Shown here piece by piece: positions 30,735 through 35,994 of a DNA stretch of 64,000 nt. The stretch's first letter is position 1. The number at the start of each line of letters is the position of its first letter. Position numbers and translations under genes: made by a program. The DNA lies in the NCBI GenBank assembly GCA_963666835.2, contig CAXXGO010000006.1, forward strand, positions 64,001 to 128,000, written 5' to 3'. The notes below the pieces were generated by a model. It had not been told where the DNA came from. It did no database searches and saw only the letters and a list, made by a program, of their open reading frames with translations. This DNA is from Phycisphaerae bacterium. Its GTDB lineage: Bacteria > Planctomycetota > Phycisphaerae > UBA1845.

Positions 30735-30825
30735 CGGGTGCTATGGTCCACGTTTGCGTGGCCATGAAGGTCTGCAGTCCCGTAGGGCACGGTCGAGGTA
30801 CGAGACCTGCCGCAATGGTGCCGGG
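30735..30825. repeat. REP cluster forming the 3' exon side of the intron
   Basis: GGGTGCTATGGTCCACGTTTGCGTGGCCATG hairpin and a GTAG-family REP at 30782. Confidence 0.8.
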
Positions 30826-31735
30826 GTCGGGATAGAACTCGGGCGCGCGCGCTTTTAGGTGGAGGGTTTCCAGATCCGCCCTTTCGGTTGCGGAGTGGGT
30901 TCACAGTTCCACCATGAGCCACGTTTCCCGAGGCCCCCCTACGATCCCGGACGGTCGGATTTCCCGAGTCCGGTTCTGACCTTGGCTTGTCCCGCCACTG
31001 CCTGCCCACAACCAAGGAAACTCAAACGCTGGCTCGTATACGCCCCTCTTGGCTGTGGTTTGCATGCGACGCTCGTCCACTCTTTAAGGGTACGCTCGAT
31101 CCCAGCTCAATGTCCGGGAGCGCCCCAGGACCGCCAAGTATCCAGGGTCCCTTTGCACGCTTCGGGCGTTACCCGTCACGTCGCAGCCTCGCGGGCTACG
31201 TCAGCGGGCATTACCCCGCCTTCATCGCTCATACGGGCCCATGCGCCGGACCAAATCCCCCTCGCCGCCTACGGTCGTTGCCTTGGTCGGCGAGTCTTCG
31301 CAGGTTGTCGCCAGTCCCTGCTGGGAGATGGCCCTTCCCGACGTTATCTCTGCAGATCTTTCCTTGGATGCCTGGGTCCCTACCGCGGCGGGTCGTCGAG
31401 GTGCACATTCCCGTTTCTTCCCTCGATGACGTCGGCCTTCCCCGCATGGCAATCGGGTCGGCTTTCCCGCAATAATCCGCTCCAGCGATTTCCCGAGCGG
31501 GCGTACTTTCGCAGCTGCAGCCATTCACTAATGTTCAGGCCTCCAAGTTTGCTTGCCACCCCGATCGCTCCCACCGCTGCAGTTCTGAGCCTGCAGGGCA
31601 GCCGTGGCGTTTTCGTTCGAGCAGAACACGTGCTGTTACCAGACACGTGCATCGAATAAGCTAGCCGTCCGAACCGGGAAACTGACGGCGAGGGGACTCT
31701 CACCCCATAAGATCCGCAGCCTTGTCGGCTGCTCC
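30826..31735 (-). mobile_element. ORF-less group II intron (910 nt)
   Basis: 34-nt domain V GAACCGGACUCGGGAAAUCCGACCGUCCGGGAUC (30976-30943); long domain VI with bulged A (30833) 8 nt from the 3' AC end; EBS1 loop CCCG-AUUGCCAUG-CGGG in a GCCGA...GAAGGC context, complementary to the 5' exon CAUGGCA; boundaries fixed by the empty site at 16683/16684; no RT ORF. Confidence 0.9.
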
Positions 31736-32190
31736 TGCCATGGCCCACGCTTGCGTGGCCATGAAGGTCTTTCGGGATCGGCCGAGCGGGCGGGTATCAA
31801 CGTCGTCGCGCGGTCATGCCGTGGACCGTCCCGAAGGGACGAAGGCGAGTAGCCGCGGGTGGAGCGAAGCGGAACCCGTGGGTGAGATTCGCCCCCACAT
31901 GCTTCAGTCCCAAAGGGTCGGCGGGGGAGGGGGCGATGTGACCCAGGGTGGCACTGACGCGGCTACGCCGCTACGTTTACCCTGGGCTTTGTTGTGAAAC
32001 GCCTTTGGCGTAAGTTCGGAAGATGCACGTCGCGCAGAGATCACGGCAGGTCTCGTTCCTCGACCATGCCCTACGTTCGCTGGGCTGGGCGAAGGCCGAA
32101 GGCAGGTTTCGTTCCTCGACCGTGCCTTACGTTCGCTGGGCTAGGCGAAGGCCGAAGGCAGGTCTCGTTCCTCGACCGTGCCCTACGTTC
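31736..32190. repeat. REP cluster forming the 5' exon side of the intron, including a 56-bp x3 tandem
   Basis: Target hairpin at 31736-31770; palindromic elements at 31828-31881 and 31941-32011; inverted GTAG REPs at 32045, 32101, 32157. Confidence 0.85.
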
Positions 32191-32316: not shown

Positions 32317-35300
32317 TTACTTCAACCGTTTGAGCAGGTCCTTTACGGCCGCGCGGAGTTGCTCGTCGTCGTCGCGCGACTCGGCTTCGGGGGTCTGGTC
32401 GACGATTATATCCGGCACGGCCCCGTGATTGTCCATATCGGTGCCGTCGAGCAGATGCCAGCCACGCATGGGCAAACGTACCCAGGTACCATCGATGAGC
32501 AGGGTCGCCCCTGTGCTGATAACCGATCCGTGCGTAGTCTGTCCGACCAGAGTCCCCCGATTAAGGGTCTTGAATGCGTGCGAGATAATCTCCGCGTTAG
32601 AGTAGCTCTGTTCGTTGCACAGCATGTTGATCGGTAGCGTATAGCGTTGGATGTACAGTCGACCCTGCGGATAGGACCCGGTTTGCGAGGGGTCGCCGCC
32701 GCGGGGGACGGTATACGCGTGGTTCGGGGCCATGATAGACGCCAGCAGCCGGTCGGTGGTCCAGCCGCCGCCGTTGCTGCGCACGTCGATTATCAGGCCC
32801 TCCTTGTCGCCGGCGGCGGCGTAGAGATCGCGTTCGAACACGTCGAGGGACTCCTGGCCCATAGCTTGAATGTGAATATACCCGATCCGTCCGTCCGACC
32901 ATTCTTCGGCCAGCTCCGCCTTGCGTCGCCGCCAGGCGTTGTACTTAAGCTGCGTTTCCTGCCGATCGGAGATCGGAGTGAGCAGCACGTTAAGGTCATG
33001 CGGCTCTCCGTCGTCGAGGACACGGCGGATGCTCACCAGGGTCTCCTGCCCGACGCGCCCGCGCAATAGCGACTCTATCGTGTCAGTTTCCCCGAGCGGG
33101 GTCAGCTCGATACCGGTGATGACATCGCCCGGCAAAAGGGCCATGTCGCCCTTGGCCGCGGGCGACTCCGGCGTCACCTCGACGACCTCGTAGCCGTCAC
33201 CCACCCACCGATGCCGCGTGCCCAAGGTGCCGGTCGGCTGGGCGTTCGGTAACTTGGGGCTGTGGGTATACACGGCCATGTGCGAAGCACTCAGCTCACC
33301 AATGAAGCGGTTGGCGACGTAGTTGAACTCACTGGCGGTCCGCGCCCGGCGGGCGAGTTGGTGGTACTCTTCAGTCAGCTTCGCCCAGTCGAGCCCTTTC
33401 ATCGAGGCGTCGTAGAAGGCCTCGCCCAAAGCCCGGGCCGCCTCGCGGAACTTCTGACTGGATTGGGCCTGAAGGTCGATGAGGATCTCGTCGGAGATGT
33501 CAACGTATTCCGCCGCGCCCCCGCCGGGGCCGACCGTCCCTGCCCGGCCGTGGTTGACGAATACGACCTTGTCGCCGGTCAGGCTGACGTGCTGAACGTT
33601 GGCCGCCTCGCCGAGCCTCGTGCGATCTTTGCCGTCCCATTTCACCGAGTACAAGCCTCGCTCGCCGATCGTGGCCGTGAAGATGTAGCGATCTCCGCCG
33701 GGCGACAGGGCGCTATCATGCTCGAAGCCGCTCAGAGTCGTCACGCGCTTCAGGCGCAAGTACGCGTCATCAAGTCCCAGCTCCACCGGCTCATCTTCGT
33801 CTTCGTCTTCCTCTTCCTCGTTGTCGCTCTTATCGTCCTTCTTCTCGGCGTCGGGCTTCTTGTCGTCGGCCTGATTCGCGGTCTTGTCGTCCGCGTCATC
33901 CTCGGCGCTGCTGGAATTCTCTTCCGGGTCCGCGTCATTTTCGGTTTCGGCGTGCTCTTCCTTCTCGGGCTTCTTGACCTCGAGCGGTTTGCGTTTCTTA
34001 GCGGCGTCGGCGGCGTCCTCGTAGTACTTCTCCAACTCCAACGGTGTCAGGGCTTCAAGGTTTGCGTCCAGGTACACCATCCAGACGTCGGATTCGTCGT
34101 TCACTCTTTCGGATAGGAAGCTGAGGATCTTGCCGTCGGCCGACCAGCTCGGTGACGAATCGTCGTCGGGATGGCGGGTGATGTTCACGGCCGGGCTCGA
34201 GCCGTCCGCCGGTATGATCCAGATATCCGTATTGTAATTGAGGTCGGACTGGACGTAGGCGATATGGCGGCTGTCCGGGCTCCATTCCCAGTGCAGTCCG
34301 GCATCCCAGCCGGGGACCAAAACGCGCGTCTCGCCGCTCTCGAAGTCGTAGATCGCCAGATCACCGAGCCCGCGCCGGAAGCTAAGAGACTTGCCGTCGG
34401 GCGCGATACTCGGTTCGCGATCGTTGGTCTCCTCCGCGATTACGGCTTCGATGTTGAACTCCAGAGCATCGTGCCAGCGCTGGGGCTTAAGCTCTTTGGG
34501 GAGTTCCTCTTCCTTTTCCTTTTCCGCGGCATCGTCATCATCCGTCGTGGCTTCCTCGTCGTCTTCCTCCTGGGCGCCATTCGGCTCGGTTTGCTCTTCG
34601 GCGTCGCCTTCGGGTGATTCCGCGGCGGCATCATCGGCGGTTTGATCCGACTCGTTCGGAGGAGTTGCCTCTTGATGTTCTTCCTTCTCGGGCTCCGGTT
34701 CATCCTCTTTCGGAGGATTGATCGCTTTCTCGAAGTCTTCTTTGATCTCACCGCGCGTGCGGGCGACGGTAGCGGCGTAGATGGACTCGGTACCGTCGCG
34801 GTCGCTGACGAAATACAGCTTCAGCCCGTCGGGTGACCAGGTAATCTCCTTCTCGCGGGCGGGGTTGCGGGTGACCCGTCGCGTCGGGCTGCCCTTGTCG
34901 ATACTACGCACATAGACTTCGCCGTAGGCCACGAACGCCATCACTTTGCCGTCCGGGCTCAACTCCGCTTCGCTTACCTCTCGGTCGATCTTCTTGAGTT
35001 CCTGCCGGTCAAACTCATCCTCGGTAGCCCGGATCGACAGAGCCACCGGCGTGGCATCCGGTGAAGTCAGATCCAGCGTATAGAGCGTATCCCACGCCAC
35101 AAAGGAGATCATCGCGCCGTTGGCGGACACGGCGAAGTCCTGTACGTCCTTCTCGGTGAACTTAGTCAGTTGCCGGGCGCGTTTGCCGCCCTTATCCGCG
35201 TCCATCCGGTAGAGATTCAAGCAGTTAGACTCGCGGTCGGAGAGAAACACGAGGGTCTGCGAATCGGCCCAGCGGGCTTTGCCGTCGTTTCCGGCCCAAT

Positions 35301-35994
35301 GGGTCAGCCTTGTGAATGCATCGGTCCTTCGATCGAACAGCCACACGTCGCGCGAGTTGGCCCCGCGGTAATGGCGCCTCGTCCAGATGACATCTCCGCG
35401 AGTAAACGCCACGCGGGTGCCGTCCGGACTGATCACCGGGGAGCTGCCGAAGGCATCGTGGACTCGCCGAATCTCCCCACCGGACGGGCGGACCATGTAC
35501 GGACGTGGGGCCGTGTAGACGTCGCCCTCCAACGCGGCCGCGAAGGTAATCACCTCGTCCCCCTCTTCGTCGACGCCGAAGCCGGTCATGATGCACTGGC
35601 CGTCAATGTCGGTCACCTGCCGAAGAGCCGTACCATCCTTGTTCATCAAGTGGATGTTGGGATAGCCGGTCCGGGTAGAGACGAAAGCGATGCGCTGTCC
35701 GTCCGGGCTCCAGGCGGAAGTCAAGTCGTCGCCGGGGTGGCTGGTCAGGCGGTGAGCGGTGCCCCCTACCGAGGGCACAATCCACAGATCGCCGCGCCAG
35801 GAGAAGACGATCTGCGTTCCGTCCGGGCTGATTGACGGATACCGCGGCAAATCGACATTTCCGGCGCCGGCTGCAGGCAGAACCGGCCGGGTGGGCGGCT
35901 GCACTTCGATGCCATCCGCTCCCGACGACCGGGCGCAGCCCGGGGTGCTCAACACAAAGACGATCATTGACAAGTGGATGAACGTTCGAATCAT
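32317..35994 (-). CDS. Tricorn-like S41 protease (PD40 propellers, PDZ, S41 catalytic domain)
   Basis: Lipoprotein-like signal, many WSPDG repeats, ELSASHM, IGYIHIQAM, IDVRSNGGG, NEQSYSNAE, GAVPDI. Confidence 0.92.
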   Translation of the reverse strand: MIRTFIHLSMIVFVLSTPGCARSSGADGIEVQPPTRPVLPAAGAGNVDLPRYPSISPDGTQIVFSWRGDLWIVPSVGGTAHRLTSHPGDDLTSAWSPDGQRIAFVSTRTGYPNIHLMNKDGTALRQVTDIDGQCIMTGFGVDEEGDEVITFAAALEGDVYTAPRPYMVRPSGGEIRRVHDAFGSSPVISPDGTRVAFTRGDVIWTRRHYRGANSRDVWLFDRRTDAFTRLTHWAGNDGKARWADSQTLVFLSDRESNCLNLYRMDADKGGKRARQLTKFTEKDVQDFAVSANGAMISFVAWDTLYTLDLTSPDATPVALSIRATEDEFDRQELKKIDREVSEAELSPDGKVMAFVAYGEVYVRSIDKGSPTRRVTRNPAREKEITWSPDGLKLYFVSDRDGTESIYAATVARTRGEIKEDFEKAINPPKEDEPEPEKEEHQEATPPNESDQTADDAAAESPEGDAEEQTEPNGAQEEDDEEATTDDDDAAEKEKEEELPKELKPQRWHDALEFNIEAVIAEETNDREPSIAPDGKSLSFRRGLGDLAIYDFESGETRVLVPGWDAGLHWEWSPDSRHIAYVQSDLNYNTDIWIIPADGSSPAVNITRHPDDDSSPSWSADGKILSFLSERVNDESDVWMVYLDANLEALTPLELEKYYEDAADAAKKRKPLEVKKPEKEEHAETENDADPEENSSSAEDDADDKTANQADDKKPDAEKKDDKSDNEEEEDEDEDEPVELGLDDAYLRLKRVTTLSGFEHDSALSPGGDRYIFTATIGERGLYSVKWDGKDRTRLGEAANVQHVSLTGDKVVFVNHGRAGTVGPGGGAAEYVDISDEILIDLQAQSSQKFREAARALGEAFYDASMKGLDWAKLTEEYHQLARRARTASEFNYVANRFIGELSASHMAVYTHSPKLPNAQPTGTLGTRHRWVGDGYEVVEVTPESPAAKGDMALLPGDVITGIELTPLGETDTIESLLRGRVGQETLVSIRRVLDDGEPHDLNVLLTPISDRQETQLKYNAWRRRKAELAEEWSDGRIGYIHIQAMGQESLDVFERDLYAAAGDKEGLIIDVRSNGGGWTTDRLLASIMAPNHAYTVPRGGDPSQTGSYPQGRLYIQRYTLPINMLCNEQSYSNAEIISHAFKTLNRGTLVGQTTHGSVISTGATLLIDGTWVRLPMRGWHLLDGTDMDNHGAVPDIIVDQTPEAESRDDDEQLRAAVKDLLKRLK

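What the first reader, a model, noticed from the sequence alone, without database searches (positions are those of the whole stretch)
30826..31735. ORF-less group II intron that appears to home into REP hairpins
Seen: a complete-looking 910-nt ribozyme (domain V, domain VI with bulged A, 3' AC) with no RT ORF, inserted 3 nt after a REP-like stem-loop (CATGGCCACGC-AA-GCGTGGGCCATG-GCA|CCCGGCACC). The EBS1 loop (UGCCAUG, 31451-31445) pairs perfectly with the last 7 exon bases CAUGGCA. Established: class C introns insert after stem-loops such as terminators and attC sites, and ORF-less introns rely on an RT supplied in trans. Inference: this is a non-autonomous intron using a high-copy intergenic REP family as a safe-harbour target, i.e. 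a mobile element exploiting another repeat system.
Basis: partly seen in the sequence, partly recalled or inferred. Interest (0 to 1): 0.85.

Follow-up and report, generated by a model that had tools for sequence, protein, structure and literature searches.

The report
Gene-less intron aimed at REP repeats
This is a real self-splicing-type (group II) intron with no enzyme gene of its own; it lands in a repeated DNA palindrome by RNA base pairing and belongs to a widespread family of such gene-less introns with an unusual catalytic core.

Summary
Window 30826-31735 (- strand) is a 910-nt ORF-less group II intron. The genome has 4 near-identical full copies and 2 5'-truncated copies. Three of the 4 full copies sit exactly after CATGGCA, 3 nt past a 25-nt palindrome of a 66-copy REP-like family.

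The intron is not class C-like. It reads its site by IIB-type pairing: EBS2 UACGC with GCGUG, EBS1 UGCCAUG with CAUGGCA, and EBS3 G with C. All three targets lie in the REP 3' arm.

It is not a local deletion remnant. Its 5' 20-mer occurs in more than 240 public contigs from at least 12 phylum labels. Fifty-one full-length homologues are 854-929 nt long. Across the 52 family members:
- EBS1 pairs with its own flank in 42 of 52, against 5% in permuted controls.
- An upstream hairpin is not general (4 of 51).
- All start GGAGC rather than GUGYG.
- All carry a near-invariant domain V with AAC in place of AGC, which Rfam RF00029 does not detect.

Several members are nested in domain V of RT-encoding introns. 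Mobilisation by an RT supplied in trans is inferred; 13 RT-bearing introns share the genome. This scan noted similar elements before on other DNA.

The parts
30826..31735 (-). 910-nt ORF-less group II intron (5' GGAGCAGCC ... UCUAUCCCGAC 3')
   Evidence: Four full copies share identical ends. Empty REP sites define both junctions. 51 full-length homologues occur elsewhere.
31739..31763 (-). REP-like palindrome CATGGCCACGC-AA-GCGTGGGCCATG in the 5' exon
   Evidence: Read. The family has 66 copies in the genome.
31746..31750 (-). IBS2 GCGTG (in the REP 3' arm), followed by the 3-nt spacer GGC
   Evidence: Pairs with EBS2 UACGC. The pairing covaries across the family.
31736..31742 (-). IBS1 CATGGCA, the last 7 nt of the 5' exon
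   Evidence: Perfect complement of EBS1. 42 of 52 family members show 7 of 7 pairing at the homologous place.
30825..30825 (-). IBS3, first base (C) of the 3' exon
   Evidence: Pairs with EBS3 G at 31380. 40 of 48 members are Watson-Crick at this column.
31716..31732 (-). 5'-terminal hairpin GCAGCC-GACAA-GGCUGC that follows GGA
   Evidence: It is the conserved 20-mer found in more than 240 public contigs. Variants L272 and L278 keep the hairpin and the GGAGC start.
31501..31505 (-). EBS2 UACGC, just 3' of the conserved CGAAAG
31445..31451 (-). EBS1 UGCCAUG in the loop of hairpin GCCGACCCG-AUUGCCAUG-CGGGGAAGGC
   Evidence: The RF02005 partial alignment places this hairpin on the model's EBS1 hairpin. 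The RT introns of the same genome carry their EBS1 in the same model hairpin. The stem covaries and the loop covaries with the flank.
31380..31380 (-). EBS3 (G after GGUA)
30943..30976 (-). Domain V, 34 nt, GAACCGGACUCGG-GAAAU-CCGA-CC-GUCCGGGAUC; AAC replaces the AGC triad and there is one extra G on the 3' strand
   Evidence: MFE fold. Family alignment gives 12 pairs; closing pair GC 29, CG 10, AU 5, GU 2 of 46. Similar to DV of the RT2 intron.
30829..30939 (-). Domain VI, enlarged by an internal insert of about 80 nt; bulged branch-point A at 30833
   Evidence: The basal helices covary (for example pair 66:162 is CG 25, GC 13, AU 6, UA 2).
30739..30766 (-). Second, unoccupied and degenerate REP copy (…CATAGCA|CCCGG) 60 nt downstream
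   Evidence: It shows what an uninterrupted site looks like.

Best explanation
The element is a non-autonomous (ORF-less) group II intron of IIB-type architecture.

Proposed mechanism, with its status:
1. It is transcribed with the upstream same-strand gene and folds into a group II ribozyme.
2. It is excised, probably as a lariat through the bulged A of domain VI.
3. It reverse-splices into DNA wherever three short RNA guides find their complements: EBS2 UACGC with GCGUG, a 3-nt spacer, EBS1 UGCCAUG with CAUGGCA, and EBS3 G with C.
4. In this genome that 16-nt site is the 3' arm and tail of a 66-copy REP-like palindrome, so the intron accumulates in harmless intergenic repeats.
5. A reverse transcriptase supplied in trans makes the DNA copy. 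The most likely donors are the 12-copy or single-copy RT-encoding D1D4-6-type introns of the same genome.

Shown: the anatomy, the exact junctions, the guide-target pairing and its covariation across a large family, the multicopy state, and the 5'-truncated copies. Inferred: splicing activity, the RT donor, and the use of single-stranded DNA at replication forks.

The element belongs to a family found under many phylum labels. Members are about 850-930 nt long, ORF-less, start GGAGC, and carry an AAC domain V. Individual lineages have been retargeted to many different sites, including domain V of RT-encoding introns.
For: Copies and junctions: 4 full and 2 5'-truncated copies. The 4 full copies differ at 6 of 910 positions. 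The junctions are exact against 41 empty REP sites.

Ribozyme parts:
- Rfam RF02005 gives a partial hit covering the EBS1 hairpin and the D1 closing helix. It is the only ribozyme family among the 4 matches at E<=10.
- DV and DVI resemble those of the RT2 intron, which scores 146.6 bits on RF02005 and 41.9 bits on RF00029.
- The consensus fold of 46 homologues gives 32 pairs in DV and DVI, 17 with compensatory changes.
- The fold of 51 homologues gives 22 pairs in D1, 16 with compensatory changes.

Targeting:
- EBS1-IBS1 is 7 of 7 contiguous pairs in 42 of 52 members, over 35 distinct IBS1 7-mers; the permuted control reaches this in 5.2%.
- EBS2 pairs in 38 of 48 members against 22%.
- EBS3 pairs in 40 of 48 members against 43%.
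- The non-REP copy lies at GCGTA-TT-CGTGGCA|C, which pairs with the same guides through one G.U.

RT dependence:
- Two copies keep the exact 3' end and the CCCG flank but lack about 830 nt at the 5' end. This is the pattern expected from incomplete cDNA synthesis.
- The genome has 12 RT1-type and 1 RT2-type intron RT genes.
- RT1-like genes were found in 4 of 5 other host genomes tested.
- In other genomes, members lie inside DV of RT-encoding introns. L157 lies beside an RT 58% identical to RT1, and L163 and L225 lie beside RT genes.

Orientation: the window copy is on the same strand as the flanking tricorn-like protease gene.
Against: - No Rfam family reaches its gathering score, and RF00029 (DV-DVI) gives nothing at E<=10.
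- The 5' end is GGAGC, not GUGYG. DV has AAC where AGC (or, from recall, CGC) is expected, so catalytic competence cannot be read off from canonical rules.
- Only 3 of 41 intact REP targets are occupied.
- No splicing or empty-site allele was seen. The laid contigs of two isolate-like runs show no 910-nt skip at this locus.
- No sequence similarity links the element to RT1 or RT2 outside DV and DVI, so the RT partner is unidentified.
- One host MAG of 2.2 Mb showed no RT1-like gene with that query (completeness not given).
Confidence: 0.85

Rival explanations
1. A class C-like intron recognises the REP as a DNA stem-loop (as IIC introns recognise terminators or attC) plus a short IBS1.
For: The window copy sits 3 nt after a stable hairpin (upstream 45 nt z = -2.27). 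Three other members (L197, L048, L050) also follow strong hairpins. The review passages read say that IIC introns insert at terminator and attC motifs (PMC4424553).
Against: The family has an EBS2 that covaries with the flank, which IIC introns lack by definition (review passage). The hairpin signal is absent in 47 of 51 members. The non-REP copy has no REP palindrome but does have the IBS2/IBS1 mimic. The element is 910 nt, about twice the IIC size I recall.
Confidence: 0.08
2. The element is an RT-independent ribozyme, in the manner reported for HYER ORF-less introns or protein-free reverse splicing. In this view it acts mainly as an RNA-guided hydrolytic nuclease or integrates without a dedicated RT, and the copies are by-products.
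For: ORF-less group IIC introns that multiply in genomes and cut DNA at a 6-7-nt guide are described. I know this only from passages in 10.1101/2024.08.31.610620 and PMC12990946; the original Science paper is not held. The family conserves about 450 nt beyond a minimal ribozyme. One host MAG showed no RT1-like gene.
Against: A DNA copy of an RNA still needs a polymerase. The 5'-truncated copies fit cDNA synthesis. Four of 5 host genomes tested carry RT1-like genes. Several members sit inside RT introns. EBS2 is present, so the element is not IIC as HYERs are described.
Confidence: 0.1
3. The element is a dead relic. In this view an inactive intron was copied among REP sites by DNA-level processes (REP-mediated recombination, gene conversion or duplication), not by retrohoming.
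For: The catalytic triad is non-canonical (AAC) and the 5' end is not GUGYG. Only 3 REPs are occupied.
Against: AAC and GGAGC are invariant in 52 of 52 and 46 of 46 diverged homologues, with compensatory changes around them. This indicates selection, not decay. The flanks beyond the roughly 35-nt REP are unrelated. The non-REP copy sits at a guide-matching mimic. The family HMM finds no decayed copies in the genome.
Confidence: 0.04
4. The element is a non-autonomous DNA transposon, either an IS200/IS605-type PATE or an IS110-type element. Both kinds are known to favour REP sequences and to insert without target duplication.
For: REPs are documented targets of IS elements (PMC1525189, title, abstract and one table passage read). 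The element has a subterminal 5' hairpin and makes no target duplication. Y1 transposase genes exist in the genome.
Against: The guide that matches the target lies 285 nt inside the element, in a hairpin homologous to the EBS1 hairpin of bona fide group II introns. DV, DVI with a branch A, and the EBS2/EBS3 covariation have no place in those transposons. No Y1 gene lies within 3 kb of any REP copy.
Confidence: 0.01

Closest known systems
ORF-less bacterial group II introns that depend on a related intron's protein in trans (review: Zimmerly and Semper 2015, PMC4424553, passages read; the Thermosynechococcus example is recalled)
   Same: There is no IEP. Related RT-encoding introns share the genome. 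The element is multicopy, and retargeting works through the EBS loops.
   Different: The review calls such introns rare and close relatives of a resident RT intron. This one has no nucleotide similarity to the resident RT introns outside DV and DVI. It belongs to an ORF-less lineage spread over at least 12 phylum labels, with its own 5' end and DV.
Class C (IIC) group II introns inserting after terminators or attC hairpins
   Same: The window copy sits just after a palindrome in an intergenic region, the RT introns of the genome lack an En domain, and the recognition sequence is short.
   Different: EBS2 is present. A hairpin is not required across the family. The size is about 900 nt. DV has AAC and an extra G.
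HYER ribozymes (ORF-less group IIC introns; known to me only through citing papers)
   Same: They are IEP-less, multicopy in resident genomes, and carry a 6-7-nt target recognition site in the EBS1 position.
   Different: HYERs are described as IIC; HYER1 is 637 nt. This family has EBS2 and EBS3 and is 850-930 nt long. Hydrolytic activity was not tested. I could not compare sequences because the paper is not held.
Nested ORF-less/RT group II introns of Methanosarcina (Dai and Zimmerly 2003; seen only in reference lists, otherwise recalled)
   Same: Relatives of this element are inserted inside other group II introns.
   Different: Here the nesting site is domain V of the host intron, not the ORF. 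The window copy is not nested at all.
REP-targeting insertion sequences, and the REP-associated group II intron copies of Pseudomonas putida KT2440 (Tobes and Pareja 2006, PMC1525189, table passage read)
   Same: A mobile element uses a REP family as its landing site. That table lists 2 of 9 group II intron copies as REP-associated.
   Different: Those are mostly DNA transposons. In the present case the REP 3' arm is read by RNA guides of an ORF-less intron.

Membership tests
Group II intron (ribozyme) | Domain V: hairpin of about 34 nt with a 2-nt bulge on the 3' strand and a GNRA-type loop | tested here: met
   30976-30943 is 34 nt with a CC bulge. 12 pairs are supported in 46 sequences.
Group II intron (ribozyme) | AGC (or CGC) catalytic triad at the base of DV | tested here: not met
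   The triad position reads AAC, with an unpaired A opposite GA, in all 52 aligned members. The canonical triad is recalled and is also seen in the RF00029 consensus.
Group II intron (ribozyme) | Domain VI with a bulged adenosine 7-8 nt from the 3' splice site, and a 3' end of AY | tested here: met
   The bulged A is at 30833, 7 nt before ...GAC. The last three bases are GAC in 32 and AAC in 10 of 52 members.
Group II intron (ribozyme) | 5' end GUGYG | tested here: not met
   The 5' end is GGAGC. It is fixed by empty sites and by IBS1 abutting it in 42 of 52 members. Two variants found without the 5' probe also start GGAGC. The GUGYG consensus is recalled; it is seen in the RT2 intron as GUGCG.
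Group II intron (ribozyme) | EBS1 loop in D1 complementary to the last bases of the 5' exon | tested here: met
   7 of 7 in the window. 42 of 52 members, against 5.2% in the permuted control.
Group II intron (ribozyme) | Match to curated Rfam models (RF00029; RF01998-RF02012 D1-D4) | tested here: inconclusive
   No gathering-level hit. RF02005 is partial at 16 bits, E 0.067, and there is no RF00029 hit at E<=10.
Group II intron (ribozyme) | Self-splicing or reverse-splicing activity | not testable with these tools
   The laid contigs show no ligated-exon or empty-site joint at this locus. Contigs cannot show absence.
Class C / IIC introns | No EBS2-IBS2 pairing | tested here: not met
   EBS2 lies at 31505-31501. 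38 of 48 members have at least 5 contiguous pairs, against 22% in the control.
Class C / IIC introns | Insertion just downstream of a DNA stem-loop | tested here: inconclusive
   True for the window and 3 other members, but 47 of 51 show no hairpin signal.
IIB-type exon recognition | EBS1, EBS2 and EBS3 all pair with the exons | tested here: met
HYER (ORF-less IIC ribozymes) | ORF-less and multicopy in the resident genome | tested here: met
   About 17 copies occur in another genome.
HYER (ORF-less IIC ribozymes) | Group IIC architecture; hydrolytic DNA/RNA cleavage | tested here: not met
   The architecture is not IIC (EBS2 present). Cleavage activity is not testable here.
REP / RAYT repeat system (the target) | Short intergenic palindrome in many copies | tested here: met
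   66 copies within 6 mismatches of the 28-nt consensus.
REP / RAYT repeat system (the target) | Associated Y1 (RAYT) transposase flanked by the repeats | tested here: not met
   There are 9 Y1_Tnp matches in the genome. The 8 whose places I checked have no REP copy within 3 kb.
Non-autonomous retroelement (RT in trans) | A related RT-encoding intron in the same genome | tested here: met
   12 RT1-type and 1 RT2-type genes. Both introns match RF02005 at 169 and 147 bits.
Non-autonomous retroelement (RT in trans) | Mobilisation depends on that RT | not testable with these tools
   The only indirect evidence is the 5'-truncated copies and the nesting in RT introns elsewhere.

The most novel reading that the evidence does not exclude
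The element represents an uncatalogued, phylum-spanning lineage of ORF-less group II ribozymes with a re-wired catalytic core. The 5' end is GGAGC instead of GUGYG, and domain V has AAC plus an extra G instead of AGC. Surveys based on domain V have missed it. It lives as a SINE-like parasite of RT-encoding introns, often lodging in their domain V, and can be retargeted to neutral multicopy sites such as REPs.
Probability: 0.4. Interest if true: 0.8.

Novelty: new variant of a known kind. Interest (0 to 1): 0.62.

Why it matters
[quoted passage not shown] Published censuses find such introns through RF00029 (PMC8919778, passages read).

This element belongs to exactly that kind of overlooked set:
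- It is a conserved ORF-less family of about 900 nt found under at least 12 phylum labels.
- Its domain V and 5' end depart from the consensus yet are invariant under selection.

If the family is active, three things follow. It shows how far the group II catalytic core can vary. It gives a bacterial parallel to SINE/LINE parasitism. It also offers compact RNA-guided elements with about 13 specified target bases. For this genome it explains a 910-nt 'gene-less' insert, and it shows that REP arms can serve as safe landing pads purely through their sequence.

Tried and rejected
- Rfam at gathering thresholds found nothing in the window.
- BLAST of the element against 60 related genomes found nothing outside the window's own genome (0 of 60). 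Sensitive BLAST against the RT1 intron gave only matches of 9-14 nt.
- tblastn of RT1 and RT2 against the element found no ORF remnant.
- Read laying on two isolate-like runs showed many repeat-driven joints but no clean 910-nt skip, so there is no evidence for or against an empty allele. A sediment DNA run and a metatranscriptome run hold variants about 94-95% alike that cover only the intron. The RNA-library contigs do not prove transcription. The variant's EBS1 change (UGCCAUG to UGGCAUG) could not be matched to its flank with the output given.
- I tested for a conserved antisense protein. Antisense open frames are unusually long (at least 200 aa in 73% of members, against 14% of dinucleotide shuffles). 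But the frame is not conserved (24/17/11), codon periodicity is weak, and there is no Pfam hit. I rejected it as a gene.
- I considered that the hairpin repeat upstream of the RT1 intron might be part of that intron. I rejected this because the repeat varies between copies that are otherwise 98-99% identical, and it also occurs alone.
- A DNA alignment was not accepted by the genome search. I used a single DNA query instead.
- The HYER paper is not held, so no sequence comparison with HYERs was possible.
- Searches for prior description of this family returned nothing that describes it. This covers the held library only.
Full report
WHAT IS THERE. Read on the minus strand, window 31735 to 30826 is a 910-nt block. 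It begins GGAGCAGCCGACAAGGCUGC and ends UCUAUCCCGAC. A BLAST of the block against the window's own assembly (6.02 Mb, 7 contigs) returns four matches covering 1-910 of 910. It also returns two matches to the last 72-77 nt only. A family HMM built later finds the same six places and no others. The four full copies differ at 6 of 910 positions (359, 476, 493, 588, 600, 632). Their flanks are unrelated from the first base outside the block.

THE TARGET. Three of the four full copies lie directly after CATGSCCACGC-AA-GCGTGGSSCATG-GCA and before CCCG. The fourth lies after ...GATGCGTATTCGTGGCA and before CCATG. A Hamming scan with the 28-nt consensus finds 66 copies of this REP-like palindrome (at most 6 mismatches). 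Three are occupied, and 41 are empty and read CATGGCA|CC. Of the empty ones, 38 also keep GCGTG at -15..-11. The empty sites read ...CATGGCACCCGG..., so both junctions are fixed without ambiguity and there is no target duplication. One of the two truncated copies sits next to a REP, after an extra CCCGGCA unit; the other is elsewhere. Both keep the exact 3' end followed by CCCG.

IS IT A GROUP II INTRON? Curated models are nearly blind to it.
- There is no Rfam hit at gathering score in the whole window.
- In E-value mode on 1.6 kb there is only a partial RF02005 (group-II-D1D4-6) match: 16 bits, E 0.067, model positions 115-216, at 31516-31382 on the correct strand. There is no RF00029 (DV-DVI) match at E<=10.
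- That partial match is still informative. It aligns the hairpin GCCGACCCG-AUUGCCAUG-CGGGGAAGGC to the model hairpin that carries EBS1 in two bona fide RT-encoding introns of the same genome.
- In those introns (RF02005 at 169.4 and 146.6 bits; RF00029 at 36.9 and 41.9 bits), the loop sequence is complementary to the 5' exon: CCCCCA with UGGGGG, and CCGCAC with GUGCGG.
- The 3' 160 nt fold on their own into a 34-nt DV hairpin with a CC bulge, and a long DVI with a bulged A 7 nt before the end.
- Both resemble the DV-DVI of the RT2 intron closely: GAGCCGGAUGCGG...CCGCACGUCCGGAUC-UGUGGGGGGCCUGGG...CCCAGGUCUACCCGAC in RT2, against GAACCGGACUCGG...CCGACCGUCCGGGAUC-GUAGGGGGGCCUCGGG...CCCGAGUUCUAUCCCGAC in the element.

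A LARGE FAMILY SETTLES IT. Laying public contigs on the locus showed environmental variants about 94-95% alike that cover only the intron. I therefore scanned two collections for the first 20 nt.
- The 80 titled genome rows carry labels from Acidobacteriota (15), Actinomycetota (12, mostly Solirubrobacterales), Desulfobacterota-type (13), Gammaproteobacteria (11), Planctomycetota (6), Betaproteobacteria (4) and Fibrobacterota (4). Chloroflexota, Nitrospinota, Myxococcota, Verrucomicrobiota, Entotheonella and one Bathyarchaeota MAG also appear (my tally; MAG binning errors are possible).
- Of 234 distinct occurrences, nhmmer with the element reports 203 matches beyond the probe. Fifty-one are full-length homologues of 854-929 nt, 66-80% identical over the whole length.
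- The element is therefore not a local deletion product. It is a member of a conserved ORF-less lineage.
- None of the full-length members contains an RT. tblastn with RT1 and RT2 hits only DNA outside the elements.

COVARIATION.
- In the 52-member alignment, the last 7 nt of each member's own 5' flank form 7 of 7 contiguous Watson-Crick or G.U pairs with the loop homologous to 31451-31445 in 42 of 52 members. There are 35 distinct 7-mers. When flanks and loops are permuted, 5.2% reach 7.
- A scan of every alignment window found a second guide just 3' of the conserved CGAAAN (element 231-235 in the window, UACGC) that pairs with flank positions about -15..-11. Thirty-eight of 48 members with distinct flanks have at least 5 contiguous pairs, against 22% in the control.
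- A single column (element 356, the base after GGUA) is Watson-Crick with the first 3'-exon base in 40 of 48 members, against 43% in the control.
- RNAalifold on 46 DV-DVI regions gives 32 pairs, 17 with compensatory double changes. On 51 D1 3'-halves it gives 22 pairs, 16 compensatory.

These are the EBS1, EBS2 and EBS3 interactions and the DV/DVI helices of a group II intron. The exon-recognition pattern is that of IIB, not IIC.

HOW THE REP IS RECOGNISED. In the window the pairs are EBS2 UACGC with IBS2 GCGUG (31750-31746), the spacer GGC, EBS1 UGCCAUG with IBS1 CAUGGCA (31742-31736), and EBS3 G31380 with C30825. IBS2 and half of IBS1 are the 3' arm of the palindrome. The non-REP copy lies at GCGTA-TT-CGTGGCA|C, which satisfies the same guides with one G.U. 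Across the family an upstream hairpin is not general. The upstream 45 nt have median z -0.06 against shuffles, and 4 of 51 fall below -2, the window among them. I conclude that the REP is a target because of its sequence. The class C analogy (structure-specific recognition of a stem-loop) is not supported, although the hairpin might still help by exposing single-stranded DNA. The REP family is modest at 66 copies. A different 12-nt repeat core next to it occurs 781 times, and no Y1/RAYT-type gene lies within 3 kb of any REP copy.

UNUSUAL CORE. All 52 members start GGAGC. The search probe biases this, but two variants recovered through an internal query also start GGAGC, with changed hairpin bases. 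IBS1 pairing abuts that G in 42 of 52 members. DV is almost invariant: N-AACCGGAC-UCGG-GAAAU-CCGA-CC-GUCCGGGAU-N'. The closing pair covaries (GC 29, CG 10, AU 5, GU 2 of 46), and inner pairs covary as well (CCACAU/GUGUGG, CCGCAC/GUGCGG). Where canonical introns have AGC (seen in RT1, RT2 and the RF00029 consensus), this family has AAC, with the middle A unpaired opposite G-A. Invariance with flanking compensatory change argues for function, not decay. It also explains why RF00029 does not see the family. Published ORF-less censuses start from RF00029 (PMC8919778, passages read). [quoted passage not shown]

WHO COPIES IT?
- The element has no ORF of its own: tblastn best E is 0.37 and there is no Pfam hit for 3 mechanical ORFs.
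- The genome has 14 RVT_1 matches. Twelve belong to a 1928-nt intron (RT1, 501-aa ORF, RVT_1 only, no En domain). One belongs to a 2029-nt intron (RT2, 472 aa). One is a Cas6-RT-Cas1 fusion.
- The two 5'-truncated copies with intact 3' junctions are what incomplete target-primed or fork-primed cDNA synthesis would leave (inference).
- Elsewhere, family members lie inside RT-encoding introns. In L157 the flanks rebuild ...ACCCAAGGCAGGAG|CCCAGUGCG, the 5' strand of an RT1-like DV, directly behind an RT 58% identical to RT1.
- In L163, L225, L060, L047 and L170 the flanks rebuild a canonical DV hairpin, GAGCCGUGUGCGGGAG|AACCGCAUGCAC, with the insertion in its loop. In L163 and L225, RT genes lie upstream.
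- RT1-like genes occur in 4 of 5 other host genomes tested.
- This pattern fits a SINE-like dependence on intron RTs, but no experiment here shows it and the specific partner is unknown.

CONTEXT. The window copy lies 580 nt downstream of a same-strand tricorn-like S41 protease gene (32317-35994) and upstream of a same-strand 492-aa ORF with no Pfam hit. At least two other copies also follow a same-strand ORF. Read-through transcription is therefore plausible.

KNOWN OR NEW. These points are established:
- ORF-less bacterial introns helped in trans, and retargeting through EBS loops (review passages).
- IIC insertion after hairpins.
- ORF-less multicopy IIC 'HYER' ribozymes (only via citing papers).
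- REPs as targets of mobile elements, including 2 of 9 group II intron copies in P. putida (table passage).

My seven literature searches found no description of a family of about 900 nt with a GGAGC start and an AAC DV. They also found no ORF-less intron reading a REP arm by EBS1/EBS2. The HYER paper itself and its supplements could not be seen, so overlap with a HYER class cannot be excluded. This scan has flagged similar things before on other DNA. Those notes describe ORF-less introns in REPs in several genomes, and one nested element of a family 'with unusual ends and catalytic hairpin' that shares words with this one. They are unchecked notes, not independent evidence.

VERDICT. The finding is a real and well-defined feature. 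It is a new variant of a known kind. It is more interesting for the family it reveals than for the REP association alone.

Noticed in passing
G000:C6:320751 and 11 other places (L012-L023); none in the window: A 1928-nt RT-encoding group II intron (RF02005 at 169 bits) is present in 12 copies. It starts G(G)AAAGCGCC rather than GUGYG. Each copy sits right after a long, copy-specific hairpin repeat ending GGGTGGGG(G), and its EBS1 loop CCCCCA pairs with that end.
   Followed up: partly
G000:C6:1065006-1067034 (L024 613-2641); fragments at C6:566933-567389 and C7:26181-26541: A second RT intron (canonical GUGCG start) is inserted at ...GAGTGCGG|G inside a Cys-Pro-Glu-Cys-Gly-coding motif. Two 3'-truncated copies sit at the same motif in other paralogous genes, and an uninterrupted paralogue lies at C6:1077905.
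   Followed up: partly
G000:C6:1808107-1810971 (L025 373-3237): A 954-aa fusion protein has Cas6-like, RVT_1 and Cas1 domains, that is, an RT-Cas1 CRISPR adaptation gene.
   Followed up: no
window about 30782-30811 (-), and genome-wide: The repeat GGCAGGTCTCGTACCTCGACCGTGCCCTAC lies just 3' of the intron's exon. Its 12-nt core occurs 781 times in the genome, and public contigs pile up there at more than 3600x summed depth. It often adjoins the REP copies.
   Followed up: partly
L222-L224 (859-nt period), L181/L182 (1008), L215/L216 (926), L056: These are head-to-tail tandem arrays of family members with no exon, or a single base, between ...CCCGAC and GGAGC... In L222 the upstream 'flank' does not match EBS1. 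The pattern suggests multimeric cDNA (from circular or read-through RNA) or recombination.
   Followed up: no
L157, L163, L225, L060, L047, L170: Family members are nested inside domain V of RT-encoding group II introns, either in the catalytic-triad strand or in the DV loop. This would inactivate the host intron unless the guest splices first.
   Followed up: partly
G061 (L269-L297): One Acidobacteriota MAG of 9.5 Mb holds about 17 family copies, nearly all after a GGGCAAGGGCAARGG-type simple repeat. It also has 72 matches to the RT1 protein.
   Followed up: partly
window 30826-31735, + strand frames: Open reading frames antisense to the ribozyme are much longer than in shuffles across the family (at least 200 aa in 73% of members, against 14%). 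They are in inconsistent frames and have no Pfam hit, so this is probably a composition or ancestry effect. It remains unexplained.
   Followed up: yes
window 31827-31881 (-) and 31942-32012 (+): Two sub-threshold matches to Rfam Acido-Lenti-1 (22.6 and 19 bits; gathering score 37) lie in the intergenic DNA upstream of the intron.
   Followed up: no
G000:C5:79022-79115, C6:234412-234486, C6:259959-260033: Sub-threshold RF00029 (DV-DVI) matches (31.8-32.7 bits) occur with no RVT_1 match nearby. The two on C6 share about 100 nt. They may be fragments of other introns.
   Followed up: partly
window 31449 and 31453, in runs X8 and X17: Environmental variants of the intron (about 94-95% alike) carry changes that turn EBS1 UGCCAUG into UGGCAUG. 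This would match the CATGCCA variant carried by 5 of the 66 REP copies here. Their flanks could not be read.
   Followed up: partly
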